From: Spirogloea muscicola
Taxonomy: Eukaryota
Direction of reading: 5' to 3'
Assembly: GCA_009602725.1 (NCBI GenBank)
Contig: WELB01000009.1
Coordinates: forward strand, 156,374 to 220,373
DNA length: 64,000 nucleotides
The notes beneath the pieces are model-generated. The model saw nothing but the letters and a program-made list of their open reading frames with translations, searched no databases and had not been told where the DNA came from. A program made the translations under genes and the position numbers. The first letter of the stretch is position 1, and each line of letters opens with the position of its first letter. Below, piece by piece: positions 9,430 through 59,828 of the stretch.

Positions 9430-12282
9430 CTATTCGCGAGGTCGGGCCGACCACAACGAGCTGAGCGCACGCAGCCTGGCAAAGTAGTCCCCCATAGCAA
9501 GCAGGCCCCGGGCGGCCTGCCGCGTGGTGAGGATGCGGTGCATCTGCTGTAATGTCTCGTGCCTCAAGCTGTCCGCCTGGCAAGCAAGCCCAGCACGATG
9601 TAGCAGTGGGTCAATGTCCACACAAGGTTACACAATGTAGGCTGGAGGAGAGCTTGCATATGGACTTGCAGCAGCAAAAACTTTATATGGCCATGCACAT
9701 GCACATGCAAATGCTTCTAAGGAGCTCTTCAATGATGATATAGCTGCTTAAAAACTTCTCATTGTATATGGTGGCGGTCAGCATGCAGCTCAGAAGCACA
9801 TAGGTTGCCCTCTGTAGCTTATTATACCTGCCTCACGAACGACTCCAAAGTCCCAAGCTTGCCCATCGCCATGGCCATCTGCCCCATGTAATTGGCGACG
9901 TTCGAGGACGCCCCCAGGGAGCCTGCCGACAATGTGTCTGCCAGGGACTGCTGCAGCGCTTCCATCCCCTGTATGTGCAGTGGAGCAGCTGTCGTATTTG
10001 TCAAGGAGGTCCTTGATGGTTCAAAGATGCAGGTGTTTGTAGCTTGAAGTCCTGAATATAAATTGGAAAAGGATAGCTGTTGAATGCCATGTGAGTAACA
10101 AGCTCACCTGAGTCAGCGCATCCTCCGCCTGCTGCGAGGACTGCTGCAAATTGCATATCCCGTGCAGCTGTTGCTCATTAAGCGGCTCAATTTGTGGGAT
10201 GAGTATCTGCAGTTCAGAATTTGCAATACCTCTTAGTGAGTGCTTGCAGCCGGTGCTTACCCACTCATTTTCCCTACCCAGGATCAAGATGCTCTTCTGG
10301 TCCCAGGCAGGAAGGACAAGTAGCTCGCATTTAAGAATGTAGTTTGTCTACACAAAGTTCACTGAGCATAGGTTCTCCTAAAGTTCCTCCTCACGCTGCT
10401 GCACAAGTAGAGCTGCTTTGGCAACTGGAGTGGAGTGAGAAACACTAGCCCGTGGGTTTAAGCAGGGGGGTGCCGTACCTTGAGCAGCTCTGACGGGCGA
10501 AAACCGCCCATCCACATGAAGCAGCGCTCGGCGGGCGTCTTCCACATGCCTGATACAAGATGGAAGACGTCCGCCTTGGCAGCTGCCGCCTTGAGCTTAA
10601 ATAGCTCCTCGTACTGCGCCATCACGCCATCCACGAGCACTCGCAGCTCTGCATCGCCCAACCGCGACTGCAGCGCCGCACGCAGGTCGCACATCTGCCG
10701 GTGGTGTTCCTCCACCCACCGTGCATACTCCACGTCAAAAGCTGCGGCTCCTGGCGAATTGGAAGCGATAGGCAGCGTCAGATTGGCCGTCCCGGCGGGC
10801 GTCGCTGACCAACAGAAGCACTATTTGCGGGCTAAGAGACAAGTGCTGCAAGTAAAGCTTGGCTGCAAGCTTGGCAACAACCTACGAGCCGGTGAATTGT
10901 CCGCTAAGTGTCTGGAAGCAACAGGAGCCACAATGCTCTGCGCCACAGTGATCGAGGCCACAGACCGGAGCAGTGCAACATGCTGCCGTGGCGCAATGCA
11001 GGGCGTACCAGGGTTCAGGTTGGCATTGGCATTGGGCCCCAGAACAGCGCCGGCCTGCCCGGCAGCCGCATCGCCTGTCCGTGTCCCAATCTGGCGCTCA
11101 ACGGCCGCCGACAGTCGGAGTCAATGTGCAGCGGCCGTGCAGTGGCAGCACCGAAGCAGTGCAGGTGTTTATAACGAAGCTCAGACTGACGCACCGACAG
11201 GAGTGGTACCAAGGACCGCAATGCCGAATGGCAACCTCGGACGGGGGCCCCGAGGTGAGGCAAGGCGAGCCAAGGCGGCTCACCTGCTGCCGGGCACGCT
11301 GCAGCTCCTGCTCAAGCTGCTGCAGCCGGACGCGGCTTGTCTCGAGCTGCTGCACGTACGCCTGCAGGAATCGGAAGAGTTACCAAAAGACGTCAGCATC
11401 GTTCCATGGACTCGCGTACCTTTGCTGGCCGTAGGCGCAGTCTGCAGCGAGCTGCTCCAAGTGGCGAGCTGCCAGGGCGGGGTGGGGCGAACACCTTCTT
11501 GCGCAGGCGGCTCTTGCGTGCAGCCTCGCGGTTCTGCGCCAGCCGCCGCAGGGCCTGCAGCAGCAGGCCAGGGGCACAGAGGAGGTGGACATGACAGGCC
11601 GCCGCTATAGACAAGGGCTTAACACTCCGGTAGGACTGGTAGGAGGCACAGTGAGCGAGTAGCAAGCGAGCGCAGTCACACACGCGCTTGTAGCCAGCAG
11701 CGCGCGGCGACGCCGGTGGCACATTTGGGGCGCTCACCTGCGGCTGGCTGCCCTTGGAGTCGCCGTTCTTCTGCTCGTGGTCGGAGCTCGTGCCGCCCGT
11801 CTGGCCATCATCGAGCTGCGGCGCGCGGGAGACAGGCGCAGACCTCGTCACAGGCCGGCCGCGAGCGACGAGCCGGGCGAGCGGGCTCCGCGGCAGGGCA
11901 GCCGAGCGCGGACGGCACAGTGCATCCAGCGAGCAGCAGGAGAAGCACGGCTGGGCTGTCGCGCCGCTGCCACGCCCAGCCATGGCTGGCAGCGGCCACC
12001 TCGGCTGCGGGCGACGTTGCCGCCATCATGGCGGAGCCTATTGAGATGGCATGCTCGCCATTGGCTGCCCAGGCTCACCCGCGGGTCGCCGTCGCGGTCG
12101 GTGGACATGGACGCGTCATCGCCGCGCGGGTCGCTCATGCCCTCCGCGCCGCTGCCGCCAGCGCCCGGCCCGGCGGCGGCAGCGGCGGGGCGCGGCCGCT
12201 TGGCCGTGGCGCGCCGGGCCTCGGCGTCGCCTAGGAGCATGTCAGGCCTTCACACGGCCGCCCCCAACGGCGCGTCATCTGA
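9430..12282 (-). CDS. TGA: TGA-family (group D) bZIP transcription factor with DOG1 domain; 5' end probably in gap 12283-12554
   Basis: LRRLAQNREAARKSRLRKK / AYVQQLETSRVRLQQLEQELQRARQQ (bZIP); FDVEYARWVEEHHRQ..ADVFHLVSGMWKTPAERCFMWMGGFRPSELLK (DOG1); C-terminus RLRALSSLWSARPRE*. Confidence 0.96.
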
Positions 12283-40759: not shown

Positions 40760-42341
40760 GGTGACCGTCCAACATGCATAAAAGACGACAAGATATCAAC
40801 ATATATGGCAGCATTTTGCTCTATCCACACCAGTGCATGTGCATTTGACACATGCACACTGAGCAATTTTTGTATTCGCATTCTTCAGCACCCAGTACCG
40901 CATCTATACCAGTGGTGTTTCCTGTGGACTTTGCTGATGAGTCAGACTGCGCAAGGTCAGTGTGCACCTTTCCTGTCTGATGCATCACTATGCACCCACT
41001 GGGCAAGCATTTGTTTCTGTCTACAGCGTATTAGTATATGGAGTACTTCCAATGTCTTGCATGCTTCCTGTTGAGTCCTATTGCTGATGTGTTTAGCATG
41101 TTGGATTGGCATTGGCCATATAGACGTGTGTCAAAAGATTGCCACCACTCCATGGTGGTCATCTGCTGTGTTCCTAGTGGGTGAGTGTTTGAAGGTAGCT
41201 CTGGATTGGCTTGTGCAGCCAAGCATCCACTGCATCTTATCGACCTCCTATTCGTGTCCATGGGGGCAGCTCAATAAGCAGGCATGTCATCTCCACATAT
41301 GCTTGTCATTTGGTTACTAATCTGTAAGGGGGCCGTCGGCTCTCCGTCTTAGATCAGTGGTCCATGCACTCCGTGCCATTATGCGACCTCCTCATGATGC
41401 CTGAGATCTGCAAGTAAATACTTAGTGAGGCACTTGTTCCAGGAATTTACTGAGCTTGTTGTGCTTACAGAGCTCCACAAGCGGCACAACTGGTTGGTGT
41501 TGCCCATGACGCAATGGAGATGGCGACTAGTGAAGCTTCTGCCAGCACACAAAGCAACAGGTGATCTCAAGGTCTGAGCAATCATGTCCTTGGTGCCTTT
41601 CTACATTACATGTCGTTGGTGCTGAGAGAGGAAGGGGGTGCTTGCCATTGGGTAGGGTATGCTCATGGGGAAATTTATGCTGAAGTGGTCATGCGCTGAA
41701 GTTTATAGGACAATGTTCAGCTGTTTTGCTGACTTTGTGGACGGCTTAAAGAGGAAATTCTGTTGTGAGTCTGCAGATATTTCACAAGATTGCCAAGACC
41801 CATCCCAAAACAATATGTTGACCTTCCAGCAATGCCTCGACGCACATCCAGGTAGTTTGACTGAAGTGTCCTTGCATAAGTCAGACATGCTTCATCTTCT
41901 AGGATGCACACTCAAGCTAGTAGGGGCATGCACAAGCCCTTTTCTCCTATCACCTGGACTCCGCTACCTGGTTACAAGCTAGATGATTGTCTTGTTTCAA
42001 CAACTGAGGAATGCTTGAGCTCTCTGTCTCCTGCTTGCAGCAAGAACAATCTGCCATCAACGCCACTGGCACCCCCTTTGTCAAGCCCTCTGGTGAGCAT
42101 GTTGTCTTACTATTAGTACTTTCTGCTCTGAGAACATTCTTGGTCAGATAGAAATGAGCATTTACTGTACTTGACTAAGTACAGTGGGTCAAAACTCAAT
42201 CTATCTGTTTGCGGTATGTTTGTTGCAGTCATCACTGAGATGTAGAGCACGTCAAAGTGGTTGTGAATATAAGCTGCAGCCTTAAAGCGAGTTCACTGTC
42301 TTGCTTGCATTCACCTTACTGTTGAGAGATGCATCTTGCAG

Positions 42342-43424: not shown

Positions 43425-45406
43425 AGGTACTGCCAATAGCGCAGAATAATTGCTTCAATCAGGAGCTCGGAGCAGTATTGTGTGGTGTTGACGGCTGTGC
43501 GACTCTGTGGAGTTTGCAGTCTGTCATCCCCTTTCGCATTAGGCGTTTGGCATACGACAGCAGATAAATTAGGCCATGCGTGTGCAGCACCTGTGCATAT
43601 GAGAGAAGCTAGGTTGCAGTGTCAGAGCCGTAGGAAGCTTAGGAGAGGCTCGAAGCAGAGCTGGTGCAAGTCTCTAGGACTGAAGTGCCTGAAGATGTTT
43701 CCCGGCTTCTGGTAGGACAAGACGATGGTTGCACTCTGTCAATTGCAACAGATGGCAACTGAAGGCCCCAATTGCGGTGCCACCGTACATAGTCTAGGAT
43801 GATTGCATAGGCTGAGGAGCAGCGCCAGCAAGCATTGCTCTCCATACTGGACCCCTTCGCTGAATTTTTCCACACAGCCAATCTACGTGAGGTTCTGCTG
43901 CTTCCTTGTATCCAGTTGGTGACTTTGTTGCTGTCGGGCCAATAAGTCTGACATCTCAGGTAACATATGGGGCCACCCTCTCGCCCTTGCCTTGCGTCAA
44001 ATTTCCATTGTCTGCTTCGCGCCCTATCACGAGTCCTGCCAGCATGTGACGTGGCAAGACTCAGCTCCGGTAAGCACCCGGTGCGCCTTGCGCAATACAC
44101 CTTGCGCAAAGCCGCCTGCCTCTAGCCTCCCTGGCGATCTAACAGCCCAGAGCAGGCGTGGTAGGCGAGAATGGAATGGGGGCAGAGTAAAGCCTGTGGC
44201 AAGGTGCAGTGAGACTGCAGTACCCCTGGCCTCTCTCGCCCAGGGGTAAGGCAGCGCCTGTCAGTAATGCTGCAGCATTTAATGGCACATGCAGTGCATG
44301 TGCGTGTCGGTTGCGCTTTAGCTGCAGCCTCTGGCTACAGACAGGGCACCTACTAAACTGAAGACTAGTTTCTCTGCTGCGGCTGCTCACTAGGGAATAC
44401 TGAGCACCCAGTGGCCACTTGAGTCGCTGTGTGCTCTAGGCTCTTTTCTGGCTCCTTTGAGAATTCAATCTTTGTCGTTCTCTATCTTTCTGCATACTAT
44501 ATGGCAAAGCTGTGCGCCTTCTGGCCCTTTGGACCCTTGCCCACTTTGCTGGGCTGGCTTTTCAGAAGAAGAAGGGCTCGCCCATTGAGAATATGGGCTG
44601 GAACAGCCAGCCCAAAAAAGAATGAACAGAGTACAAGAAGAGGGGGGGGGAAGCCAGGCGAAGCCCTAAGGCAGAGCCCTCGCCCCTCTTTACAATGCTT
44701 GGTTCTAAGACAGGCGGCCGCTCAACAGGGGAGATCCAGCGCCAGTGGCCACTTGAGTCGCTGAGTGCTTGGCGCTTTTCTGGCCCCTTGGAGTTGCTGG
44801 CCCCTTCTGTTCATTCTTTTGTCTGGGCTGGCCAATCGCAGCCGTTACCCTCTGCTTAGTCCCCTGCTTTCTGCGCCATTCGGCTCCTCTTGACCTTGTC
44901 CATTCCTTTTGGGCTGGCTTCTCCCAGCCACCAGTCAATTCGGCCGCGCTTTGCTGAATGGACTCTGCTGAATGGACGAGCGTGGTTATTGAGAGGAGGA
45001 GCTGCTTCCGGGGGATCTCCTGAAGCAGCGGAGGGGGCCCCACCCAGTTGCGATCCGGGAGCACGCGCCGCACGAGAAGTCAGCGTGACGGCGCCGGCTG
45101 GCGCTTCGGATTGCGGCCAAGTGGCCAGTGCACGTGACGGGCCTCTCGTGGCTGCCGCGTGCTCCCACGACCGTTGCTAAGGGATCAGGCCTGCCCGTGT
45201 GGCCGTCTCTGCCACGTGGCACAGCTCAAGCCCCCAGTGGGTTGGCCCCCCCCGCTAAAAAGTTTCTCTTCTCCGACTGTGCCAGGTTGGGCGACACATC
45301 ATGCGGAGAGGAAGAAAAGAAAAGGGAGAAGTGCTCGCCCATAGAGACGAAGGGCTGGCAAGGCCAGCCCAAAAACAATGGACAGTGTCTGAAGCCGAAG
45401 AAAGAA

Positions 45407-45617
45407 GAAGAAGGGCTCGCCCATTGAGAATATGGGCTGGAACAGCCAGCCCAAAAAAGAATGAACAGAGTACAAGAAGAGGGGGGGGGGAAGCCAGGCG
45501 AAGCCCTAAGGCGAAGCAGCAGAAATGACAAGCACACAAGAAAAAACAAAGCAGCTACTAACCACTCAGTAACCCCTGCTAAGCAGGCGCAGGTCGGAGA
45601 GGCTATGCTCCTGGAAG
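45407..45617 (+). mobile_element. ~210-bp non-autonomous hairpin element, full-length copy 1
   Basis: Near-identical reverse complement of 50335-50544; bounded by GAAG on both sides; GGGCTGG-AACAG-CCAGCCC hairpin near the left end. Confidence 0.8.
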
Positions 45618-45712
45618 AAAGGATTTCGTGTATTTGAAACAATCGAAGGCCAGTATGGCCAAGTACAGAGGTAAGCACATCTTATGACGTAGCAGCTAGC
45701 ATCTAGCAGCTA

Positions 45713-45947
45713 CTGGAGCTGCTAGTGGAGTGAGGCAGCAGCTGTGCCAGGAGGAATGGAGGGGTGGGGGGGAGAAGAGGGCTGGAAGTGCCACGATTGG
45801 GGCCTTGACATCCTGTCCTGCTGGAGCTGCTAGAGGAGGAGTGAGGCAGCATCCATAGCAGGAGGGATGGGGGGGTGGGGAAGGATGGCCGGAAGTGCCG
45901 ATGAGGGTCTTGTCGACCTGGCCTGGCAGCAGTGGCAGGATGAGGGA
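45713..45947. repeat. Tandem repeat of ~108-bp diverged units running into an assembly gap
   Basis: CTGGAGCTGCTAG..GGAGTGAGGCAGCA..GGAAGTGCC recurs at 45713 and 45821. Confidence 0.7.
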
Positions 45948-46994
45948 NNNNNNNNNNNNNNNNNNNNNNNNNNNNNNNNNNNNNNNNNNNNNNNNNNNNN
46001 NNNNNNNNNNNNNNNNNNNNNNNNNNNNNNNNNNNNNNNNNNNNNNNNNNNNNNNNNNNNNNNNNNNNNNNNNNNNNNNNNNNNNNNNNNNNNNNNNNNN
46101 NNNNNNNNNNNNNNNNNNNNNNNNNNNNNNNNNNNNNNNNNNNNNNNNNNNNNNNNNNNNNNNNNNNNNNNNNNNNNNNNNNNNNNNNNNNNNNNNNNNN
46201 NNNNNNNNNNNNNNNNNNNNNNNNNNNNNNNNNNNNNNNNNNNNNNNNNNNNNNNNNNNNNNNNNNNNNNNNNNNNNNNNNNNNNNNNNNNNNNNNNNNN
46301 NNNNNNNNNNNNNNNNNNNNNNNNNNNNNNNNNNNNNNNNNNNNNNNNNNNNNNNNNNNNNNNNNNNNNNNNNNNNNNNNNNNNNNNNNNNNNNNNNNNN
46401 NNNNNNNNNNNNNNNNNNNNNNNNNNNNNNNNNNNNNNNNNNNNNNNNNNNNNNNNNNNNNNNNNNNNNNNNNNNNNNNNNNNNNNNNNNNNNNNNNNNN
46501 NNNNNNNNNNNNNNNNNNNNNNNNNNNNNNNNNNNNNNNNNNNNNNNNNNNNNNNNNNNNNNNNNNNNNNNNNNNNNNNNNNNNNNNNNNNNNNNNNNNN
46601 NNNNNNNNNNNNNNNNNNNNNNNNNNNNNNNNNNNNNNNNNNNNNNNNNNNNNNNNNNNNNNNNNNNNNNNNNNNNNNNNNNNNNNNNNNNNNNNNNNNN
46701 NNNNNNNNNNNNNNNNNNNNNNNNNNNNNNNNNNNNNNNNNNNNNNNNNNNNNNNNNNNNNNNNNNNNNNNNNNNNNNNNNNNNNNNNNNNNNNNNNNNN
46801 NNNNNNNNNNNNNNNNNNNNNNNNNNNNNNGTCGCCGCCGGCGGCGGCGACGGCGGCGGCGCGAGCGGCGGGCGCGGGCGCCCAACGGTCGGGAGCGGGG
46901 GGGGCGGCGCGCGCTTCCGCTGGAAAGAAGAAAGAGGTGCTGGAAGAGAGAGAGAGAAGGCGCGCTGGAAAAGGACTACACTACCAAACAAGAC

Positions 46995-47110
46995 GAGAGA
47001 AGGCGCGCGGGGCGCATGAAATGAAAGGGAGGCCAATTCAAGCCAGTACATTGATCAGGCGAAGGCTACTGCAGACTAAACAAGGCTAAATGTACCTAAA
47101 GTAAGGTGCC
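46995..47110 (+). repeat. 116-bp repeat, exact reverse complement of 55928-56043
   Basis: Base-by-base comparison; diverged relatives at ~13445, 14420, 14610, 16110, 16850, 19075, 47680. Confidence 0.92.
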
Positions 47111-47218
47111 TAAGGTGACATCAATACCCACGGGTGAGCACAAACAAATCTGACAAGCTAACTTGGGCAGCTGGAGCGCCGCCACGAAAGCCGGAGGCCT
47201 GACTTAGAGCCCTGCACG

Positions 47219-47552
47219 TTGATGAAGAGCCAATGCTTGCGAGCGCTGCAAACTAAGCGAGAGCCGCATTCTGTACTAAAGAAGGAGAGGCACTATAATG
47301 ACCACCCCCGGGGCGACGGGCGACCACTTCTTCCCATGCGCCATGGACATATACGGCGGCTATGGAACGAAGTGGTCTGCCCTCCTCCATCGCCTGGCAC
47401 TGCATGTTGATGCCCGCCGACGTAGTCGGGCGATTAGCTTAGGCCATTCTAGCGTCCCGCAAGCCATCATTGCATGCGATAGGATGAGGCTATCATTGAG
47501 TCTGCAGCGCTCCAAGCACTCGCGATTCACCAGCGTGCTGGTCGTGCATTAG
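47219..47552 (+). mobile_element. 3' fragment of a CRE-like non-LTR retrotransposon (restriction-like endonuclease end)
   Basis: KKERHY then (frameshift) HFFPCAMDIYGGYG..SALLHRLA...RMRLSLSLQRS, the F.P.A.E..G..G / RLS..LQR pattern of RLE-type elements. Confidence 0.6.
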
Positions 47553-49105
47553 CCCAGGCTAATGGCTTCCGTGGTGGTGGTTTGGCTCCTCAGTATAGCT
47601 TGTCAGATATGCATGTGCTTACTCGGGGATATTAGTGTCCCCCTTAGGCAGCTCATAACCCAATTACCAGGACATTTGTAAGGCTAGAATTGGCCTCCCT
47701 TCCAATTTCATGCGCACCGCGCGCCTTCTTCTCCGCTGAAAGGAAGTGCGGCCAGATTGACTGGTGGCTGGGAAAGGCCAGCCCAAAAGGAATGGACAAA
47801 GGAGCCGGACATTACTCGAAAGAGCTAACTCGGAGTGGTGGCTAAAACCCCGAGCCCTGTCGTGACACTGGGCGTCGGCAGTATGCACAGCAGCGTCTGT
47901 TTTGCGATACCAGCGTACAAATTTGGTGATGTGTAGATAGCATGCTTGCCAGGCAAACCAGCAAGAACACGGCCTTGATGTAAGTCAGGAGACTCTTCCA
48001 GTTTCCGTCATTGTGGCCCCTTCGACCCTTTGTCAATCTTTTTCGGGCTGGCTTTTCACAGCCCTTGCCCCCATTGAGAGAGCCACTTCTCTTCCAGTAG
48101 AGGGCGATGGCTGGGATTGGCCAGCCCAGAGAAGAACGAACAAGTTTGAAGGGGCCAGAAATTGATGTGATAATCTCGCATTGAGAAGCGAGGAAGAAGA
48201 CGACAGCTTAAGTGAGAGTCGCACAAGCACGGAAGCTGCATGTATGTTGGCTACTATGACGTTGTGGCTGATGGGTATGACGACCAAACGAGGTGATGCG
48301 GCAAGATTCACATGACTCAATGCAGAACTCAAGCACGAGCATGAAGCGTCTGCAATGTCCTCTTTGAAGAGTCTCACGCATCAGTGTAGCATAGCGCACG
48401 AGAGGGCAAGGCCCAATGGCCAGTAACCAAGGGCGGGGCCCTAGATGCAGTCACCAAGGGGCAAGGCCCAGCTCTCTCAGCAGCTTGACGGGGCAAGACA
48501 AAATTGCGACAGCGATGACCGCTATGTCATTCACGAGATGCTACTACTAAACCCCTCGTAGCTTGCTCACGAGCTTCTCGGTCTATCACTTGGGCTTCTC
48601 TTGAGCCGCTCGGAGGGCAGGTATGGCTTGTGCGGCAGTGCCAGGTGTAGCATGACAGAGTGAGCGTACTCCCTGACCCGCATGGACTTGATAGGTACCG
48701 AGTTTGTAAGTCCCTTCACACCAAGCTGATGAAGTGCCTCTGTATCCACATGTGCCGCCACCTCCACGTCCTTGTTTGATCAACAACGAGGCATCAACGA
48801 GACATGGCACGACAGCTGTCATGCCACAGCGCGTCAGCTGCCATACAACGCCATTATGCCAGATCAGCAAAGAACCAGGTAGCGTGTTATAGCTTGCATG
48901 GCAGGCAAAACAGAAAACGGAGTTAATTATAACGTTGGAAGTGAGAAGCGAGTAGAAAGACAATAGCCTGAAATAGATTGGTACAAGCACGAAACTCGTA
49001 TATAAGTTGGCTACTATGAGGTTGTGACTGATGGATACTGAAAGTCAGGGCTTCCCCTAAAATCAAGTGCTGGTACAGCATGACAACTTGGGCTAGAATC
49101 TGTGA

Positions 49106-49300
49106 GCAGCCTACACAGAACCAATCGGCATCTCGGAATATAATGGGAAATTGGAGAAAAGCTACGAAGGTGCCACCCCTTCTGCAACTATAGCACAAAA
49201 GCATGGCGGCGGCTAGATCACATTGGTGACAAAAGAAGCAGGACAAATGATCTGAAACCCATCGTTGTAAGGGGTTAGTAGATGTGTCAAGATTACTCAG
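49106..49300 (-). mobile_element. Degenerate PHD finger, probably the integrase C-terminal PHD of a Ty3/Gypsy element
   Basis: LSNLDTSTNP..LSCFFCHQCDLAAAMLLCYSCRRG......FP....DWFCVGC: C-x2-C, MLLC-x2-C and WFC-x2-C kept, central His/Cys lost. Confidence 0.6.
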
Positions 49301-49519
49301 GTAATAGTAGTGATATCCCGGATATAATGATAGCAACACGGTTGCCTGAGCCATGTAGTCTGACGACATTGGAAGAGAGTCTTTCTCAGCTGCTTAGCTT
49401 CTTATTGTGCTTGTCTTCCTTAGTGCTTCGCCTAGCCCCCTTCTTGTACTTTGTTCATTCTTTTTTGGGCTGGCTGTTCCAGCCCATATCCCCAATGGGC
49501 GAGCCCGTTCTTCTTTCTC

Positions 49520-49927
49520 AAGGAGCCTAAGGTGCTTTTTGCTCTGGCTATTGGTACAGGGAACTAAGTTGCCGGCTAATTGTGGCACGATCAAAAATCT
49601 TGCCTCTATTTACAGATGTAATGTCTGCAAGCGTGCGCGTCGAGCATAGACTGCTCTTCCATACATGATTATGCATGCTGAAATGGACTCCCGGGTGAGC
49701 TCTTTAACCTCACGCAAACTCCAGCCTGTCTTGTGCGTCAGCAGTTGCTGAAGTGCAGAACCGGTTGCTCTTGCCAACACGTCGATGAGAGCGTCAATGC
49801 TGATCTCCTTCTGGTGAAGGTTTCACACAGTTGTGACTTGTGTATCATGGGGCCGAGCCTTCCACTTACCGACAACGTTGCAATCAGTGCTGGAGGAGAT
49901 CCAACTCCGATTGCTTTTGGGGCATGA
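49520..49927 (-). pseudogene. Second, frameshifted and truncated copy of the partitivirus-like coat protein sequence
   Basis: Aligns by eye to ~50988-51395 (roughly 75-80% nt), e.g. QLCETFT-QKEISIDALIDVLARATGSALQQLL vs QVCKTFTQKEISIAALIDVLATRTGSALQYLL, with 1-bp deletions. Confidence 0.8.
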
Positions 49928-50291
49928 CGGCATGCTTTTGGGGCATGGGTTACGTGAAGTGAGGCGATGGTCAGCTTATGTGTGATGTTAACAAGACATT
50001 GACACTCGCCCTCGAACTCATAACCTTGGTCTGGAGTACCTCAGCGTAAATTTCAAGTCAGCAGAGCACCTGCTCCAGAAAAGCTTCAGCAATGTATGTG
50101 CTGGACTTCCGGGGATGACAACACCCTTAACCCATTGAGTGAGGTGCTCAAAGAATCATAAGTATGGTGTCTGAGCACCCTTGCACAGAAGACCTGCCAA
50201 TGGAAAGGCCAAACCTTATTCTCGGTATGAGCATTCATACACTCATAACATCAAAAAGGGTTCATACTCCGCGGGGGGGCGTCCTAGCTCT

Positions 50292-50322
<31 letters not shown>

Positions 50323-50334
50323 CCAGGGGACATA

Positions 50335-50544
50335 CTTCCAGGAGCATAGCCTCTCCGACCTACGCCTGCTTAGCAGGGGTTACTGAGTGGTTAGTAGCTG
50401 CTTTGTTTTTTTTTGTGTGCTTGTCATTTCTGCTGCTTCGCCTTAGGGCTTCGCCTGGCTTCCCCCCCCCTCTTCTTGTACTCTGTTCATTCTTTTTTGG
50501 GCTGGCTGTTCCAGCCCATATTCTCAATGGGCGAGCCCTTCTTC
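50335..50544 (-). mobile_element. ~210-bp non-autonomous hairpin element, full-length copy 2 (interrupts the viral ORF)
   Basis: Near-identical to 45407-45617; CTTC at both ends on the + strand. Confidence 0.8.
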
Positions 50545-51400
50545 TGCTAGGAAGAAGCCGTCGAGTTCTGTAGCCGAGACCTGTCTAAGCAAGCTGCCAT
50601 AAATATCACCTAACGGCTTTGTCATCAATGTAGCGACAAAGCCTCTTGGCTTCTCTCTATTGGCCCTGCTCTTGGTGACAACCTTTTCATCAATGGTTGT
50701 CCAAGCTCTGGTGAAAGCGTCTGTAGGGCTAAAGCTCCCCATTGGAAATGTAGAGATGATGTCAAATCGTTTGGCATCACCGCCTGCCTCTAAGGTCCAC
50801 CGTCCAGTTCCTACAGGGGTGTCTAGGTCTATGGGCCCCAGTGGGGAACCAAAGCGTCGGAAGTGAGCTAACATTGTACTATAGTCAAGGACGCTAGCTT
50901 TTGCTGAAGTGCCTCCACTGTTGAGGATCTGATCTGTCACCGTTGGTATAAACCGCTCATCAACAACCCTGCCTACTGGTCTGAAGATGCCTAAGGTGCT
51001 GATTGCTCTGGCTATCGCTGCTGGGAACATAGTCTGCCGGCTAATTGTGGCACGGTCAGGAAACTTGCCTCTATTTACAGATGTAACGTCTGCAAGCATG
51101 CGCAGTCGAGCATAGATTGCTCTTCCGTACATGTCTGTGCATGCTAAAATGGACTCCCTGGTGAATGCTGTAACCTCACGCAAACTCCAGACACCCTCGC
51201 ACGTCAGCAGATACTGAAGTGCAGAACCAGTTCTTGTTGCCAAGACGTCAATGAGGGCGGCAATACTGATTTCCTTCTGCGTGAAGGTTTTACACACTTG
51301 GTGGTGGTATAGCATGGGGCCGAGCCTTCCACTTGCTGACAAGGTTGCAAGCAGTGCTGGGGGAGCTCCAACTCCAATTGGTTCTGCGGCATGACATCCT
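50545..51400 (-). pseudogene. Endogenous viral element: partitivirus (deltapartitivirus/cryptic virus)-like coat protein
   Basis: Intronless ~280-codon open frame with YGRAIYARLR..RGKFPDRA..MFPAAIARAISTLGIFRP..RFIPT, LDTPVGTGRWT and FPMGSFS, matching by recall the motif order of plant cryptic-virus capsid proteins; 3' end cut by a repeat insertion at 50544. Confidence 0.65.
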
Positions 51401-52096
51401 CCTTCTGTGGTGGGGGAATGACATGGGGTGGTTCTGAGTAATCAGGGTGAAGTGCTGCAAATGGGAGTTCGGTAAAGACAGCAACGTACATTGTGTTCGA
51501 GGGATTCAACTCATGACTGAAGGAAGGGCTGATAGTTGCAGCTATGATCAGCTCATAGATCGTGCCCAAACTGGACACTGTACGTAGTTGCCTTGATAGT
51601 CATGCATACAGTTGAGGTGCGTTGCGTAGGATCTCTTGCATTCAATGTGCAGAGGGCATCTGGTGATTCCATATACTCTGTCAGTACCACCGATTTGCCG
51701 TCCATTGAAAGTGCCATCGGGCGTACCTCTGTAATTTTCTAGGACCCAATGCACCATCCTGAGATGTCTTCAAAGATATAACTCTTCAGTGCCGTATGGC
51801 ACAATTTCAATGATAGTAAGACGATGTCCAATGTATCAACAGAAATGTTGATGACCTGTCCTGAGTCCAAACCCTTACACTGAGCAGAATGCAACCTGTC
51901 TGCAACAAGAAAGTATTTGACTCAGTAAGATCGAGACATTGATCAAATTGACTTGGGTATAGTCCAGATGTAGTCAATCAAAGTCCAGATGTAGGCAAAC
52001 CATGTATAGATGTAGCAAGACAGGTTTCAGAGCTTAACCCCATCAACATCAAGTCACCAATGCCCACAAGAGAAGAGTCCTCTCGGCCCAGTACAA

Positions 52097-52412
52097 GGTG
52101 ATGCAGCAAGATGCACTCTACTAAACGCAATGAAACAAGCGCGACAAACGTCTGCAATATCCTCACTGAGAGTCTCACGCAGCAACGTTGTGATTGAGCC
52201 ACAGAGGGCAAGGCCCAATGGCCTGTAACCAAGGGCGAAGCCCAAGATCCACTCACGAATGGGCAAGCCCAGCTATGTAAGTGGCTCGAATGGGGCAGGG
52301 CCCAGCCCTTTACGTAGCTCGGAACGTGGGCAAGGCCCAGCTGTACCAGTAGCCTGAACGGGGCAAGACCCAAAAACAACAGGCAATTTCCGCAAGATCA
52401 ATCACAAGATGC
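52097..52412. repeat. Diverged direct repeat of ~48292-48541 with internal GGGCAAGGCCCA sub-repeats
   Basis: Shared blocks GGTGATGC.GCAAGAT, CGTCTGCAAT.TCCTC, GAGTCTCACGCA, GAGGGCAAGGCCCAATGGCC.GTAACCAAGGGCG; six sub-repeats at ~25-36 bp spacing. Confidence 0.75.
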
Positions 52413-53315
52413 AAATGACGCAATCTCGCAGACAAGCAAATGACACTGAGACTGTACTCAACAGCCTCTGAGTGAATTGAGGCAATGCTCGACAACTGCA
52501 CCTGTCACACGAGGTCACAATGTTCCGTGGCTTACCTGGTGTGACTGGGCCTGGCGCGACTGCCTGCGGAGCCCCTCGGGATAAAGCTCCCCTACTCCGC
52601 TGCTGCCCTTGATCTGAACCCGCGCCTTCTTGGCGCGACACAACAGGAGCTAAGACGCCCGTCGTCGCTGCGGCGGCGGCGGCGCGGGGGCAGATGGGAA
52701 GACTGGGCTGAGTGGACTGCTCGGCTTCGGGTACTCCACACCCAGTTACTACTCGGTGAGGTGAAAGGTTCACGTTCTTTGATGGGGTTTCTGGCCTTCA
52801 GCCCCCCCACAGAAAAAATAAGTCGTGTATTTGAAAGAAACGAAGGCCAATGGCCAAGTACAAAGGCAAGCACATTCAAAGTTCTACATGACCTACAGCA
52901 GATTGACCCGCTCAGTAAGCACGGGTCAAAACATAAAGGTCGCGAATCGATGCATGAATACTAGATGTCAGATACGAAGCCCTTCTGCCACCAACTAGAG
53001 CTCGCCCAGCTTTCTGGTGCAAGGCATTAGCCTGAGCACGCTGCAAACAGGCCGAAACTCGTCGTTGCAAGAACGACAGACATGCAGCTGGCAAGCCCAT
53101 CTCATAGAAGAGGGCTTCGCTTTATGTAGCCCCATCCTTTGGAAGAGTATTCTTCTCATTTTGTGCATTAGCTTTGCCTGAACAGTGTGTTTAGATTGAT
53201 CACCCTTCGATATCGTATACACCGCGCGCCTTCTCTCTTTACTCATTCAACTTCTGCATTGCCGACGCGGGCGGTAGAATTGACTTTTGCAAAGAAGGAG
53301 CTCGCCCATTGAGGA

Positions 53316-53975
53316 TGTAACGAATGCTGTAGATCGCCAAGCCCGGGCTGCCGGCGGCGCAAGGAGAAGCGGGAGGCATTGGGATGGGGCCGCAACGGTA
53401 AAATTGACAAACGGTTACTGCAGGGGCAAGGGTCCAGGGGTCCGAGGTTGGGTGAAGAACTCACCCCCTCTCCCATCTCGGGTGCCCTCTTTATAGCCCG
53501 ACGGACTGCGAGCCCGGCCATACGGGCCCGGGTGGGATATTCGGCACCCAGTCTCTCGTTGATGACCCGTCCACGACCTGTCGACGGCTAACAACGGCTA
53601 CCACCGACAATCTACCCGTCACTCGCAGCTGACAGTCACTACCCCCAGGCTATCGTCAGCCGTCTATCATCCCCGTCAATACTAACGGCTAACAATGCCG
53701 TCAAGGCAGTCTACAGCGCTGCCACCTCCCGTCGCCGTTCCAGCGCCAGCACCATGCTGTCTCGCGTGTCACGACTCCGGGTTGCGCCGCTCTCAGCTCT
53801 ATATCAAAGCCACGCTGCCCAGCCTGGTGAAATTGTCCGTCTCCAGGCATCTGTCAAGCCTTTCCTGCGGCACTGACAGTCAATTTATTTATCAGCCGGA
53901 TGAGGTATCTAATCTCCAGGCATCTGTCAATACATTACAGCTGCATTGACATTCCAGCCATGTAAATTCGTTACA
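53316..53975. mobile_element. Solo LTR (660 bp)
   Basis: TG...CA ends with a perfect 10-bp inverted repeat TGTAACGAAT/ATTCGTTACA; 5-bp TSD GAGGA (53311-53315, 53976-53980); TATA-like CTATAAAG on minus strand ~53489-53496; removal restores an intact repeat module. Confidence 0.88.
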
Positions 53976-54439
53976 GAGGATAGGGGCTGGAAAAAGCCAG
54001 CCCAAAGGTTCATTCGTTTTTGGGCTGGAAGGGGCCAGGGAACCCTATGCCATTTGGGCGCGGGCAGATGGGAATGTTACTTGACTGGCCAGAGAAAGAG
54101 AAGACGCTTCCAGGAGAGGGCAGTAGAAGTGGCATTGGCAGGGGGCCTGCTACCCAGAGAGAATTCTCTCTGACCTGAGGCTGCTCAACAGGGGTTACTG
54201 ATGAGTGCCTCGTGGCCACTTTAGTTCCCGTGCTTTGGCGCTTTCTCTGGCCCCTTCGAACTGTTGTCAATCTTTTTATTGGGCTGGCCACTCACAGCCA
54301 TCGCGCTCTACTGGACGCGTCCTTCAAAGCTGAGCTGGAGGTACCATGCTCACGACTCCCTTCAGACCAGATCTGAAATGCGAGTCCGCCTCACATTTCC
54401 ACGTCTGCAGCCACCTCACCAATCTTGTCAGATTCAAAC

Positions 54440-54896
54440 GAATGAACCGCCGACGACTATGGCACGGCAAATACCAGCCGCGCTTTAACTGCCATAATAG
54501 TCTCGCAGCCGCGGTGGCAGAGCTGAACGGCCTCCACCGAATACCCGGCGAGAAAGTGGTGTTCTTCGGAGCCATGTTCAAGCGCCTCCACCGGGCAGAC
54601 TCCACCATGCTGGAGGCCCTCAAGCTGTCTTTCCTGTGGCGTCACTCCAACCAGAGCTCGCGCAGAGTGCTCTCATCAGTCAACCAGCGACCTTGGACAA
54701 GGCACTGGAAACCTTGCATGCCTTGGCGACAGTCACGCCCTTGCGGCCCAGACCAGCAGCCTCGGAATTCAACATGTCCACTACCCTGGAACCGGCAATA
54801 ACCACCACCGGTGCAAAAACAACAACATCGAGGGAAGAGATGACCGCAGTGCTGGAGAAATGGAGAAGACAGGCACTTCGATCAACATTTTTTTAG
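54440..54896 (+). mobile_element. Frameshifted retrotransposon Gag remnant
   Basis: RF...SLAAAVAELNGLHRIPGEKVVFFGAMFKRL..MLEALKLSFL / LQPELAQ..QPATLDKALE, resembling the Ty3/Gypsy Gag Q/PGE(S)V..F..RF region. Confidence 0.55.
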
Positions 54897-55927
54897 CAAA
54901 GACCGCGGCATAGCCTGGACTGTAGAGCATAGTAGCACACAACCAATACTGGCACTTCCATAGGCTAAAGCGGAGAATCACCTGGTGGAGGAAGAAAGAT
55001 GCGCATTACGCGTAAGCTGAAGTGGAGGAGGAGCATAGTGACACCCTCCTTGCGGCAAGTAGCTCTCCACAGGAGGGCAGATATCACCCTCCTGTGGAGA
55101 CAAAAGTGGGACTCTATGGTGCCGCCTTACCAGGCAACGGTGACAGCTCCTGGGTTGATATGAGTTCCACCATCTCCATGTTCGGTAACGGTGCCTCCGG
55201 CGTCTGCGATCACCGAGACAGCTTGCAGAAGCCCCTGGGGCCGGCGCGACCGGCCAGGGCACACCTTGCCCCCCTGGGTGCTCCAACTTGCATCGCCCGG
55301 GGATCGAACCCGGGACCAGTACTCCGGTTCTCCGGTGTCCTGTGCAAGAGGTCCAGAGCGATCAAGGTATACCGTAGCGGGTCGTTGGAGGCCGGTGCTA
55401 CCATTAAGTAGCAGGCGCCTAATAAGATTGGTTGACTTCTTATCATCTTCTGCGAAATATTAATATTGACGCGGCCCGTTGCCTGTGCTGGCCACGCACT
55501 GGCAACTTGAGAAAGAATGTGGACCTTGTAAATACTTTCGGGCTGGCCTCTGACAGCCCTTGCCCCCTTTGAAAGTGCATAATTTGCTTCGCTGCAGCCA
55601 GAGAATTGCGCTTTTCAGAGCAGATGAGGGGAGACAAACAGGGAGAGATTGGAAAGATCTCGATTGACGAAATGCAGCTACTGATGTGAAAGAGCGCGGC
55701 TGTGGGCGTCAACCAGGTGCACAAAGAAAGTGTTAAGAAGAAATTAGCGGAGACACCAGCTTGGCAAACACGGCGCTCCCAGTCAGCGCTTCCCTGGCCC
55801 ATTCGGTCATTTCTGGGCTGGCCTCTCCCAGCCACCGCCCACTCCTCGGCTCCTTCAGACCTTGTCCATTCCTTTTGGGCTGGCCTCTCACAGCCAAGAG
55901 TCAATCTGGCCGCGCTTTCGTTCTCCT

Positions 55928-56043
55928 GGCACCTTACTTTAGGTACATTTAGCCTTGTTTAGTCTGCAGTAGCCTTCGCCTGATCAATGTACTGGCTTGA
56001 ATTGGCCTCCCTTTCATTTCATGCGCCCCGCGCGCCTTCTCTC
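55928..56043 (-). repeat. 116-bp repeat, exact reverse complement of 46995-47110
   Basis: Base-by-base comparison. Confidence 0.92.
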
Positions 56044-56772
56044 CTGGAAGCGTCTTTCTCCTAGTACCCGCATGTCAGCAGTCGAAAGTCCGATGTGCTG
56101 ACGTGGGGGTGAGGGGAGAGAGGACATTCCTTTTTTCGGCACTTCTCTTATAGAGCGATCGCCTTGACTCGGAGGAAGCTACTTGCTTTGCTTTATGTGT
56201 TTGGACGTGGAAGCTTCAAGGTGAAGCGGAGACGGAGGAGGGAGGCGATTGGCGAGATTGGGCTTCCCACCCACCCTCCGCACCCCTCCCTCCCTCTCTT
56301 CCTTCTCATCCCTACCTCCCTCCCCTCTACCACCCCACCTCTCTCTCTTGCCTTTGTACTTGGCCACCACTCAGGCCCTCCATCTGTGAGTGGCCAGCCC
56401 AGAAAGGGGCCAAGGATGAAAGAATGGCGCTACAGAAATTCTATTCCCTCTCTCTTCGCCCACTCCCCCCCCCTTTCTCCCTCCCTCCCGCCCGCCCCAC
56501 CCCTCTCTCTTCCTTGCTCTGTCTCTCTCCCTTGCTCTCTCGCATCGCCCCCACGGCGTCACGGCGACGCCTGGGCGTTCCACCCCGCCCAGCCATTAAG
56601 AGCTGCAGGCGATGAGGAAGCCCACAAAGAGCAGTCCCCTCCCCACCTCTGCACACCTTCAGCAGCAGCTGCAGCTGCGAGCCTCCGAGTCTCTGCGCCC
56701 GCAGCTTGCCGCACCCGGGGCTCTCTCGGCTCCACGCAGCCCATTGCGCCGCAGCACCCCCCGTGCACGGCC

Positions 56773-57512
56773 ATGGCCGAGAGCGCCCTGCCTGCGCCGA
56801 CGTCACTGACCCCGTTCCTATTGGTGGAGCGCGGCAAGGCCCAGGAAGCCGTGGAGTGGTACAAGAGCGCGCTCGGCTTCGTGCAGATGGCACTTGATGT
56901 CGATCCCCGGCCCTCTGAGGACGGCAAAACACTGCTGATGCATGCCCACCTGAAGAATGGAGCGGCCGAGATTCGCCTGGGGGACGCTCCGCCAAGCCAT
57001 TATCCACCGTGAGCGGCAGTGACTATCAACCCCTCTCGTCCTTGCAGTCAATAAGGGTCAGATGGGCGGGTTGAGGCATCGAAGTAGTCTGCTGTATTTT
57101 TCTGTGCTTCCTGAGTACTTCGCTAGGACAGGGAGTGTGCCTCGTACTCCTCATATGAGACCTCTAAAGTACCAATGCGGCAAGTGGGTCAAGAATGTTG
57201 TGTAGGAAGGGCTGGATGTATGAGCGCACTGAGCCTGGGGCATAAGCATAAGTTGAATTTGGACCTGCTCACCCACACTGCATTCCTGTTGTCAGTGGCC
57301 AGACTCCAGCGGAGCAGAAGATAACTTGCCACTTCATGCTGTACACCAGCGAGGTGGACAAGCTGGTCGCGAAGGCAGAGAAAGCCGGTGCAAAAGTCAC
57401 TATGGCGCCACATGATGCTTTCTGGGGAGCACGATTTGCTGAATTTGTGGACCCGTTTGGTTTCGGTTGGTCTGCACATCACCAACAATGCAGCGAGTCG
57501 ACTCAGAAGTAG
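56773..57512 (+). CDS. VOC/glyoxalase superfamily, PhnB-like protein, 2 exons
   Basis: LTPFLLVERGKAQEAVEWYKSALG..LMHAHLKNGAAEIRLGD; exon 2 FMLYTSEVDKLVAKAEKAGAKVTMAPHDAFWGARFAEFVDPFGFGW; stop TAG at 57510-57512. Confidence 0.9.
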
Positions 57513-59828
57513 GTACAGCAAAAGCTACGCAGCAATGTAAAAGCTTTTGCATGTAGCAACAAGGCTCTACTCTTCCAGTGCTACACACGTCAGTAGGGGA
57601 TGATAGAGGATCAAATTCTCCTGGCTCTCTTCTTCCTGTACTTAGCACTTACAGCTCAGTGAAGTTCATATACTCACGTGCTCGCCTTGACAGAGGATGT
57701 GACAGGAGTCTGTCATGTACTCTCAAATATACCCGATTCTCGCATTGTCAACCTCATTGCTTGTGATGCTCTCCGCTCACCAATGGCTACTTTGAAGCAC
57801 CACAGCTGCCGCCAGTGACAGCTCGTTGACTTGTCATGCTAACAAGATTTCAGAAGGGGCAATAGTTATATTAGATGAGAAGGAGGGCAATGGGGAGGCA
57901 TAAGCGTGAGCGTGTGAACCGTGAGACTATCCTCGTGGTATCATGAGCACTGGTGACGGACCAACAGAGGAGAAGGCATGGGTGTTAGGAGAGTTGCAGT
58001 GCTTGGACCGACAGCCTTCAAGAAACTGGCGAATGCCCAGAAGTTAGTGACGTCAGGAGCGAACCTGACTTGACAGACAGGAGGTTTATATGATGTCAGC
58101 TGACTGCAATACAACGGCCAGATGAGTTGCCTGTTATGGTCCACATTGCAGGTAGTACAAGCCAAATTAAGTGTGAAAGCAAGAACTGCCAGAAAGGAAT
58201 GGCTTGCACAAGAACAGAACAAGCAAAATGTGTGCGAGGCAGCATGAGTCTGTGGCCGGAGCAATCTAAGAACTTGGTTCATCTAAATTTGACTCCTTGT
58301 GATGACACCTGCTTCGTAAATAAGGTAGAGACCAAAGATAACTGATCAGCGCCTTTCCTCACGTGAACATTCACAGGCTTATTGATTGGCTGAGTGCATG
58401 GTCCAGAGCCGCACCCGGGTCAGAACAAGTCGCTCTCCGCAAGGCGATGGAAGGGTGGGACAGATGCTGACCGTGGCTTCTCATGGTTGGCAAAGATAAC
58501 CTCTTTGTCAGCTCAGAATCCGCTTTAAACAAATCGAGCTGCAAGTACAGAAGCATCGACAACAGCTAGCCAAGCGAAGGAAAGATCTCGACGACCTGAG
58601 ATATCAAGGTGCAGGAAATTGCTACAACAACCTCTAGCTTTGCATCCTGTGGTGACGATGTCTGTCACCACAGGAACCTGGCGACTCATTATGCGCAACT
58701 TCAGCAAGCCCAAGTTGGCCTCTACCCGAGTAACACCTATCCGGGTTGATTCCCAGCCTGCTGCGCACCGGCGCCAGCATGGCACGAGCACGTTGAGCTG
58801 CAGCTGTGTCCGGCGCGGGCATTGTTCTCATGTCTGTCTTCACACCGAAGGATTGGAATGTCAGCCTTCTATGTCTACGTTCGCAGCCATGTCAGCATTC
58901 TTGCCATTCACACAGATGAGCCACTGATGGGACATGCCAGACGCCTTTCGAGAAGAGACGGAGCTCAAGAGCTCAATTGGTGGAGTCCAGCAGCTGCCGC
59001 AGTGAACTGCCGTAGTTCCACTCCAGCAACCACGAGTGGGACAAGGAGGAGGATTGAGGAGGCACCACGTTGACACTAGCAAGCTGGGGTTCTTTGGACC
59101 TTGTCCACTCCCTCTGGGCTGGAGATGTGCAGCCATCACATCCTTCTCCGGCGAGCTTCTTCACCGAGAGCTGCGCAATGCATCCCAACCCCTGATCCCT
59201 GAAGCCTTTTCCAGAGAAGCCATGACTTGCTCGTATTCGTCTTTCACAGTCCTCTCCGGCGCTGTCAGACCTTGTTCAGGCCTTTGGGCTGGGCTTCCCA
59301 CAGCCACTGCCTTACGCTGAAGAGCTATCTTAATTGTTCTCAGCAATCGCTATTTTCCGGGGGAGGAACTTATCCTCTTTCCAGCAGACCGACAAATGGC
59401 CCGCGCCCAGGCCGGGAGCCCGAGAGGCCCCGACTGCCACGTGGGACACAGGGAACGCCCCCGAGTGCCGACGACACGCGGCGTCCGCCCGACAGCGCCC
59501 ACGTGCGGCTGCACGTGCAAGTCGGAAGGCACATGGCGGGCGCAGTGCCGTCGATGCACGTCATCGGGCGGCCGCAAAAGCCGGAGGCCGTGGCACGGTC
59601 CGGCAGCAGTCGGCAGTAGCAGCCAATCACGGGGGGGCGGGTGGTGCACGTGCGCTGGCGGGGCGACTGGCCTGGCCGGGCCCACCAGGCGGGGCCCCCA
59701 GCCCGGCCCCTCTCCCCTCCAGCACATGGATCGCGTTACCAGCTCTCTCTCCTAAAGCGCCCCCGCCTCCCTCCTCCCCCCCCCCGGCGCCTGCAGGCCA
59801 TTCTCTCCGCCCCAGGCCCGCGCCCTCA

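What the first reader, a model, noticed from the sequence alone, without database searches (positions are those of the whole stretch)
50545..51440. Endogenous partitivirus-like coat protein, largely intact, in an algal genome
About 290 stop-free, intronless codons in an island of otherwise broken relics. The motif order YARLR / P..IA.AI..LG.F / F.IPT / G..WT / FP..F matches my recollection of deltapartitivirus capsids. Partitivirus CP integrations are established in angiosperms (e.g. Arabidopsis ILR2); one in a streptophyte alga would extend host range and could reflect co-option or antiviral memory.
Basis: partly seen in the sequence, partly recalled or inferred. Interest (0 to 1): 0.85.

Follow-up and report, generated by a model that had tools for sequence, protein, structure and literature searches.

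The report
Spliced partitivirus capsid gene in alga
A coat-protein gene related to those of plant cryptic RNA viruses (deltapartitiviruses) sits in the DNA of a green alga from the lineage closest to land plants and is likely transcribed and spliced like a host gene, which would push these viruses back into algae, although the gene likely has little or no maintained function.

Summary
Its best relative is the putative coat protein (CP) of a moss deltapartitivirus (33-35% identity, E 1e-26), and its model matches the pepper cryptic virus 1 capsid best (Z 16.9). It lies at single-copy depth in DNA runs. A neighbouring gene matches a Spirogloea muscicola (Zygnematophyceae) gene model. 'Intronless' is wrong for the transcript: a contig from a probable RNA run of a second study joins 51727 to 51404 across a 322-nt GT-AG intron, placing an in-frame ATG in strong context before the capsid frame (303 aa). 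A second upstream intron is inferred. The viral N-terminal arm is missing, and a young repeat supplies the last 7 codons and the stop. A broken tandem copy (83% identical) lies 600 nt downstream. Signs of selection are weak and mixed (dN/dS 0.83). No RdRp was found nearby. Partitivirus CP insertions are known in flowering plants; my searches found none reported in a streptophyte alga. Verdict: a new variant of a known kind, most likely an expressed, weakly constrained relic, with real odds (about 1 in 3) of co-option.

The parts
50524..51404 (-). Capsid exon: deltapartitivirus-like coat-protein frame (residues 12-304 of the stop-to-stop frame), ending in TGA at 50526-50524
   Evidence: fold; RNA contig covers 51404-50771 only
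51405..51726 (-). 322-nt intron, GT...CAG, pyrimidine-rich 3' end
   Evidence: skipped by contig 18 of run X5, present in DNA contigs 3, 4, 12, 13; ends read
51727..51899 (-). Upstream exon (extent as covered by the RNA contig; may run further); carries the ATG at 51757-51755 (A at -3, G at +4), in frame with the capsid exon, with an in-frame stop just upstream
52536..52698 (-). Probable further 5' exon in a GC-rich stretch (67% GC), ending at a consensus donor CAG|GTAAGC
   Evidence: contig 20 of X5 matches 52535-52698 and goes on for 68 letters elsewhere; donor and depth arithmetic; join inferred, not displayed
52117..52417 (-). Bin that holds the inferred 68-nt exon piece; candidate acceptors CAG|G at 52353 or 52222; overlaps a 33-nt tandem repeat and a dispersed repeat
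   Evidence: inference from depth arithmetic; repeats
50335..50548 (.). Young high-copy repeat (98% identical to 45403-45617, 99% to 44564-44672) that supplies the last 7 codons and the stop of the frame
50287..50323 (.). GCTCTG microsatellite between the two copies
49516..49943 (-). Broken tandem copy of the first half of the capsid exon: 83% identical, three one-base gaps, one stop, no AG at the acceptor position, cut off at a repeat
50030..50270 (-). Possible decayed copy of the upstream exon and donor (weak: 1 of 1000 shuffles reached the local score; a global alignment gave no support)
49414..49515 (.). Older member of the same repeat family (85-89% identical to the young copies) abutting the broken copy
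9430..12138 (-). Host TGA (bZIP + DOG1) gene used to place the host; span 2709 nt equals the locus length of gene model SM000009S23467

Best explanation
A deltapartitivirus-like coat-protein sequence sits in the alga's DNA beside a broken tandem copy; it is likely transcribed from an upstream host-type promoter and spliced to an exon that supplies its start codon, so it would yield low levels of a 303-residue protein predicted to keep the capsid fold, most likely under weak or no selection. Steps. (1) Inferred from established knowledge: a cytoplasmic dsRNA virus has no DNA stage, so its CP message was copied by a host retroelement reverse transcriptase and inserted; only the CP segment was found here. 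(2) Shown: two tandem copies exist. Inferred: they arose by DNA duplication after insertion, because their differences fall evenly on the three codon positions, unlike two virus strains. (3) Shown in one contig of a probable RNA run: the upstream exon is joined to the capsid exon across GT..AG, in the sense of the capsid frame; this bypasses the place of the viral N-terminal arm and gives an in-frame ATG. (4) Shown: a young repeat provides the end of the frame. (5) Inferred, untested: translation, and little or no present function. If it has one, the likeliest is a decoy capsid subunit (see rival 1).
For: Identity: 17 hits at E<=0.001 among 1.84 billion proteins, best P0002 at E 9.6e-27. Of 10 hits looked up, 3 are named deltapartitivirus or cryptic-virus CPs, 1 clusters with Raphanus sativus cryptic virus 2, 1 with a Nicotiana attenuata genomic protein, 1 is 'hypothetical', 4 are unnamed. 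BLASTP 33% over 307 columns. Model pLDDT 79.8; only 1 of 71 PDB matches has E<=0.001, pepper cryptic virus 1; Z 16.9 (rmsd 3.4, 198 aligned) against PCV1 and 11.3 against PsV-F. In DNA: depth 54.6 over the frame against about 50-62 on unique flanking contigs in X1, no differences. Splicing: contig 18 of X5, 807 letters, no differences, two abutting pieces; GT..AG ends; DNA contigs run through both splice sites. Near-neutral drift: differences 26/19/21 by codon position, dN/dS 0.83, P 0.53; profile scores favour neither copy (21:15, P 0.41); a frame this long survives 0.09 neutral substitutions per site without a stop 13% of the time; a nearly invariant Trp is Arg at 213; a repeat replaced the C-terminus; RNA depth is low (9.75) and unspliced intron pieces occur at depth 4.
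Against: All four frame-breaking lesions in the shared stretch (3 gaps, 1 stop) are in the other copy (gaps alone P about 0.04); at differing residues the open copy agrees with the two nearest viral proteins 12 times against 4 (P 0.077). The ATG is in frame and in strong context, and 9 of 10 invariant or nearly invariant columns are kept. These point to some constraint. The splice rests on one low-depth contig from one run whose RNA nature is only guessed, and it does not reach the stop codon. No single DNA contig spans from the frame across the repeats to a host gene.
Confidence: 0.5

Rival explanations
1. Co-opted gene. The spliced message is maintained because the protein is useful: most likely a decoy capsid subunit that lacks the viral N-terminal arm and proper C-terminus, joins the capsids of related partitiviruses and spoils genome packaging; alternatively a regulator of host physiology, as ILR2 is reported to be in Arabidopsis.
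For: Lesions only in the other copy, polarity 12:4; canonical intron with in-frame strong-context ATG and a probable second 5' intron; whole shell region kept and well modelled; precedent of ILR2 (PMC3136472, passages) and of a partitivirus CP that alters nodulation (cited in PMC8494798, passage).
Against: Pooled dN/dS 0.83 is not different from 1; none of the polarity tests reaches P 0.05; Trp-to-Arg at a nearly invariant site; low RNA depth; no orthologue in another species was found; no matching live virus or RdRp was seen in what I could search.
Confidence: 0.33
2. RNA-level memory. The locus acts as a source of small RNAs against a related virus; the tandem and repeat-flanked layout would feed silencing and the protein is incidental.
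For: Two tandem copies among dense repeats; transcription likely.
Against: The copies are direct, not inverted; silencing needs near-identity at the nucleotide level and the nearest known virus protein is only 33-35% identical. No small-RNA data were examined.
Confidence: 0.08
3. Donor was not an algal virus (a separate question from function). The sequence came from a virus of a moss, fungus or other neighbour by a one-off transfer, so it says nothing firm about deltapartitiviruses replicating in Zygnematophyceae.
For: The nearest named relative is from a moss library; ILR2 is closest to a fungal virus (PMC3136472, abstract and passages); no RdRp seen.
Against: Distance to the moss virus is large (branches of about 1.5-2.2 changes per column), as expected for an unsampled algal lineage; insertion needs viral RNA inside the algal cell (established reasoning); its clade also holds two unassigned environmental proteins.
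Confidence: 0.25
4. Artefact: a contaminant or mis-joined contig, or a cellular or transposon protein with chance likeness.
For: The DNA runs may be the source of the assembly; no contig bridges the repeats on either side. No Pfam or PDB sequence hit.
Against: Single-copy depth equal to the flanks; host repeats abut both copies; a run from a second study holds the same letters spliced; known CPs P0002, P0004 and P0008 also have no Pfam hit; the fold match stands far above unrelated rows.
Confidence: 0.03

Closest known systems
Putative coat protein of Racomitrium varium deltapartitivirus (P0002; CAH2618961.1)
   Same: 33-35% identity over nearly the whole frame; sister in the trees (91/83; SH-aLRT 99).
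   Different: That protein is 366 aa with a 58-residue longer N-terminus and 13 more C-terminal residues, and belongs to a two-segment RNA virus; this one is in DNA, spliced, with borrowed start and stop.
Partitivirus CP-like sequences (PCLS1-8, including Arabidopsis ILR2; PMC3136472)
   Same: Chromosomal copy of a partitivirus CP gene without its RdRp nearby; several PCLS are closest to the same short-CP group (RSCV2, FCCV, rose cryptic virus; passages).
   Different: Those reported are in flowering plants (the word 'alga' occurs 0 times in that paper's main text). Its single mention of 'intron' is PCLS lying inside host introns, not a CP exon spliced to an upstream start. ILR2 is closest to a fungal virus and has a mutant phenotype; none is known here.
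Pepper cryptic virus 1 capsid (PDB 7NCR; PMC8494798)
   Same: Best structural match (Foldseek E 6.2e-5; Z 16.9, 198 residues, rmsd 3.4). The model also has a basic low-confidence loop (255-266) before its last strand and helix, loosely like PCV1's disordered protrusion.
   Different: 10-12% identity; PCV1 has a long-form CP. That paper states there is no evidence that short-form CPs assemble capsids, and this protein's relatives are of short-form length (343-367 aa).

Membership tests
Deltapartitivirus-type coat protein | Sequence homology to deltapartitivirus CPs over most of the length | tested here: met
Deltapartitivirus-type coat protein | Partitivirus shell fold | tested here: met
   the model used an alignment of viral CPs, so this is not independent of the sequence match; the single-sequence model failed (pLDDT 33.5)
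Deltapartitivirus-type coat protein | Full-length CP with its own N-terminal arm and C-terminus | tested here: not met
   match covers P0002 59-353 of 366; no similarity of the one alternative upstream frame tested to P0002's arm; end from a repeat
Deltapartitivirus-type coat protein | Forms homodimers and T=1 capsids | tested here: inconclusive
   not settled by the tools; needs expression and electron microscopy
Deltapartitivirus (as a virus) | Two dsRNA segments with an RdRp that defines the genus | not testable with these tools
   no genome held; no RdRp by Pfam in the window's frames of 85 aa or more or in six frames of 46831-56171; genus placement rests on the CP alone
Endogenous non-retroviral RNA virus element (PCLS type) | Present as DNA at chromosomal copy number among host sequence | tested here: met
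   4 probable DNA runs of one sample hold all sampled words; depth equals the flanks in X1; host repeats abut it
Endogenous non-retroviral RNA virus element (PCLS type) | Physical link to host genes across both junctions | tested here: inconclusive
   contigs break at the repeats; 50522-51548 and 51524-51989 overlap, but no piece spans the region
Domesticated (co-opted) viral gene | Transcribed and processed by the host | tested here: met
   GT-AG join in one contig of a probable RNA run, absent from the DNA contigs; single run, low depth
Domesticated (co-opted) viral gene | Purifying selection | tested here: inconclusive
   dN/dS 0.83, P 0.53; polarity 12:4, P 0.077; lesions 4:0
Domesticated (co-opted) viral gene | Orthologues kept across species; protein made; phenotype | not testable with these tools
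   no related algal genomes can be searched here; no near-identical protein

The most novel reading that the evidence does not exclude
A land-plant-type cryptic virus infected the algal sister group of land plants, and the alga domesticated its capsid gene: it built a two-intron host transcription unit that discards the viral N-terminal arm, supplies a new start, and makes a decoy capsid subunit that blocks assembly of related partitiviruses. This would be a captured RNA-virus capsid used as an antiviral gene in an alga, and evidence that deltapartitiviruses predate or cross the alga-land-plant boundary.
Probability: 0.2. Interest if true: 0.82.

Novelty: new variant of a known kind. Interest (0 to 1): 0.58.

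Why it matters
Deltapartitiviruses had been extended to liverworts, mosses and lycophytes (bioRxiv 10.1101/2022.02.07.479358, section 50). A fossil in Zygnematophyceae, grouping with the moss virus and apart from the vascular-plant CPs sampled, would carry the lineage into the algal relatives of land plants and gives a probe to look for the live virus in algal transcriptomes. The locus also shows a viral gene midway to becoming a host gene (new introns, borrowed start and stop, a decayed sister copy as a built-in control), so 'relic or co-opted' is directly testable. As a side result, the model suggests that short-form deltapartitivirus CPs share the PCV1 capsid fold, a point left open in PMC8494798.

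Tried and rejected
Pfam, PDB sequence and word-index searches with the protein gave nothing; a profile search of PDB sequences gave 0; the word-index search with the alignment gave 2 of 7993 candidates. ESM Atlas gave nothing usable for the protein or for P0002. Locus searches found no relative in viral contigs (could not run on the divergent alignment) or metagenome contigs. The single-sequence fold failed. The homodimer prediction returned 'no answer' (score 0.00, alignment not used) and is not used either way. No run is on record as RNA ('no RNA holder listed'); X5 is a guessed RNA run. Run X6 laid nothing, which proves nothing. Stretches that X5 does not cover (including 51900-52116, where the four upstream ATGs lie) are not taken as evidence. 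A wider view of X5 over upstream exons and neighbouring host genes was not obtained, so the second intron and the RNA nature of X5 on known genes stay untested. The idea that the intron is the old viral N-terminal arm found no support in the one frame tested; a recalled 5'-terminal virus motif was not found upstream. Homology of the two copies' upstream regions is weak. Rfam: 0 matches in 44000-58000. My first guess of Klebsormidium as host was dropped. Three look-ups of earlier findings were empty. Liu et al. 2010 (PMC2977895) is not held, so its tables, which may list algal insertions, were not seen.

Full report
Observation. The minus strand holds a stop-free frame at 50524-51441, 304 codons between stops (protein P0001). 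None of 300 base shuffles of 46831-56000 gave a frame this long. Without splicing, the first in-frame ATG is at residue 42.

What the protein is. Pfam, PDB sequence search and the word-index search gave nothing, but the exhaustive search of 1.84 billion representatives gave 17 hits at E<=0.001. I looked up 10 of the 17. The best (P0002, E 9.6e-27) is the putative coat protein of Racomitrium varium deltapartitivirus; P0008 is that of interrupted club-moss deltapartitivirus; P0011 is coat protein 1 of silvergrass cryptic virus 1; P0004 clusters with Raphanus sativus cryptic virus 2 and P0005 with a Nicotiana attenuata genomic protein; P0003 is 'hypothetical' and four have no name. BLASTP against P0002 gives 33% over 307 columns, covering its residues 59-353 of 366. 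Alignment A1 held the query, 15 of the 17 hits (P0007, a near-duplicate of P0005, and P0010, a 1106-aa protein with a 29-residue match, were left out) and P0024. The query keeps 9 of the 10 invariant or nearly invariant columns; position 213 is Arg where nearly all have Trp. With A1 the model reached pLDDT 79.8 (33.5 without alignment). In the PDB only 1 of 71 Foldseek matches has E<=0.001, pepper cryptic virus 1, and the next are PsV-F and picobirnavirus capsids. In BFVD 9 of 211 matches have E<=0.001, of which 2 are named, both partitivirus or cryptic-virus capsids. VIA-align against 48,161 chains ranks PCV1 (Z 16.9, rmsd 3.4, 198 aligned), PsV-F (11.3) and Atkinsonella hypoxylon virus (8.3) on top, with unrelated rows at 4.0 or less. 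Because the model leaned on viral homologues, fold and sequence are not independent lines. In trees of 17, 14 and 12 rows, midpoint-rooted and without an outgroup, the protein groups with the moss virus and two environmental proteins (100/99; sister to P0002 91/83) apart from the other 13 rows. All these branches are long and the tool warns of false joins, though the pairwise scores agree.

The host. An exon of a bZIP-DOG1 (TGA) gene in the window matched gene model SM000009S23467 at 97%. All its parts map to the window, and the gene's span, 2709 nt, equals the model's locus length. A passage of bioRxiv 10.1101/2022.07.21.501042 assigns identifiers of this form to Spirogloea muscicola, Zygnematophyceae. 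That this class is the sister group of land plants is established knowledge. No protein near-identical to P0001 came up or 16 although this alga's gene models are in the collection, so the gene appears unannotated (inference).

It is in DNA. Four probable DNA runs of one sample hold all sampled words, and one probable RNA run of another study, labelled as another organism, holds 73%. In X1 the contig 50522-51548 has depth 54.6 and no differences, against 49-62 for the other unique contigs listed; X2 is noisier (164 against 112-162). These runs may be the source of the assembly, and no contig spans the repeats on either side. No second copy at 90% identity or more added depth over the frame in X1.

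It is likely spliced. Contig 18 of run X5 (807 letters, depth 9.75, no differences) maps as two abutting pieces, 51899-51727 and 51404-50771, on the minus strand (table 8). The skipped 322 nt begin with GT and end with a pyrimidine-rich CAG, and DNA contigs run through both sites. The orientation of the splice signals makes the transcript sense to the capsid frame. The join puts the ATG at 51757 (A at -3, G at +4; the only ATG in the covered exon, with an in-frame stop just upstream) in frame: 10 new residues plus residues 12-304, 303 aa in all. Contig 20 of X5 matches 52535-52698 and stops at a consensus donor, CAG|GTAAGC. Its 68 unplaced letters account exactly for the depth of bin 52117-52417 (0.77 expected, 0.77 seen), where two CAG|G acceptors lie, so a second intron is inferred. 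Limits: one run, low depth, RNA status guessed, unspliced intron pieces at depth 4, no cover of the last 250 nt of the frame, and no link shown between the two contigs. Since X5 has no differences from the window it is probably the same strain or species under another label (inference), so it does not show conservation across species.

Surroundings. The frame's last 7 codons and stop lie within a 214-nt repeat that is 98-99% identical to two copies 5-6 kb away, so the C-terminus was replaced recently. Downstream lies a second copy of the first half (49943-49516), 83% identical, with three one-base gaps and one stop, cut off by an older repeat. No RdRp or transposon domain was found by Pfam in the window's frames of 85 aa or more or in six frames of 46831-56171. 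The rest of the genome could not be searched.

Selection. Over 134 codons the copies differ at 26, 19 and 21 first, second and third positions; dN/dS is 0.83, P 0.53. This fits duplication in the genome followed by largely neutral change. At 36 differing residues a profile favours the open copy 21 to 15 (P 0.41); identity to the two nearest viral proteins favours it 12 to 4 (P 0.077). Neutral substitution at 0.09 per site leaves the frame stop-free 13% of the time (60% at 0.02, 2.5% at 0.18), and all three gaps falling in the other copy has P about 0.04, before allowing for the fact that the frame was picked for being open. The evidence leans slightly to constraint but does not show it.

How it most likely works. 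Capture of a CP message by a host reverse transcriptase (established route, not shown here), tandem duplication, decay of one copy, and expression of the other from an upstream GC-rich region through two introns, with a borrowed start and stop. I put 0.5 on a weakly constrained or neutral expressed relic, 0.33 on a maintained gene (decoy subunit most likely, an ILR2-like regulator less so), 0.08 on small-RNA memory and 0.03 on artefact. Separately, there is about a 0.25 chance that the donor virus did not normally live in the alga.

What is known. PMC3136472 (abstract and passages seen) describes partitivirus CP-like sequences in many flowering plants, including ILR2; 'alga' does not occur in its main text. 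bioRxiv 10.1101/2022.02.07.479358 (passages and section 50; supplements closed) extends deltapartitiviruses to liverworts, mosses and lycophytes, and says it removed suspected endogenous sequences from analysis, so this locus may have been seen and dropped there. PMC8494798 (passages) gives the PCV1 structure and leaves short-form CP assembly open. PMC7594059 and PMC12542316 (passages) report partiti-like viruses in chlorophytes and aquatic angiosperms, not this. Searches for a report in streptophyte algae: Spirogloea + partitivirus gave 0; Klebsormidium + partitivirus + endogenous gave 0; some searches listed 15, 2, 4 and 2 papers, none on this by listing or by the passages read; the phrase 'endogenous partitivirus' was absent from the 15 papers listed. 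Subscription papers, including Liu et al. 2010 and the genome paper, were not seen.

Verdict. The find is a new variant of a known kind: known in type, new in host lineage as far as I could search, and unusual in having become a spliced transcription unit. Interest 0.58.

Noticed in passing
window 2084-2368 (+): Exon matching MurJ lipid II flippase (Pfam PF03023, E 1.7e-6), fitting a plastid peptidoglycan pathway as known from mosses and streptophyte algae (recalled).
   Followed up: no
window 4591-7661 (-): Multi-exon IMP dehydrogenase / GMP reductase gene.
   Followed up: no
window 56773-57509 (+): Glyoxalase-like gene of the At5g48480 type, the nearest recognisable host gene upstream of the locus.
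   Followed up: no
whole window, e.g. 44564-44672, 45403-45617, 46995-47110, 50335-50548, 55928-56043: Very abundant short repeat families with a GGGCTGG...CCAGCCC hairpin core; some copies are 98-100% identical and inverted to each other, so they appear to be recently mobile.
   Followed up: partly
window 48182-48277 and 48942-49037; 48288-48541 and 52093-52412: Two pairs of older direct repeats (75-76% identical); the second pair overlaps the inferred 5' exon of the capsid transcript and may have supplied it.
   Followed up: partly
window 42273-43424 (+) and 10462-11610 (+): Long open frames (383 and 382 aa) with no Pfam match; the second overlaps the TGA gene on the other strand.
   Followed up: no
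P0018: A 122-aa relative on a 4685-nt contig, too long for a partitivirus segment, may be another endogenous copy in an unknown host; it falls in the same clade.
   Followed up: no
P0024: A 324-aa Nicotiana attenuata protein on a 51-Mb contig, named 'uncharacterized', aligns as a nearly whole short-form partitivirus CP.
   Followed up: partly
window 21246-21725, 25180-28141, 33443-33928 (+): Weak AAA-type hits, an aminopeptidase P gene and a KOW-motif exon.
   Followed up: no
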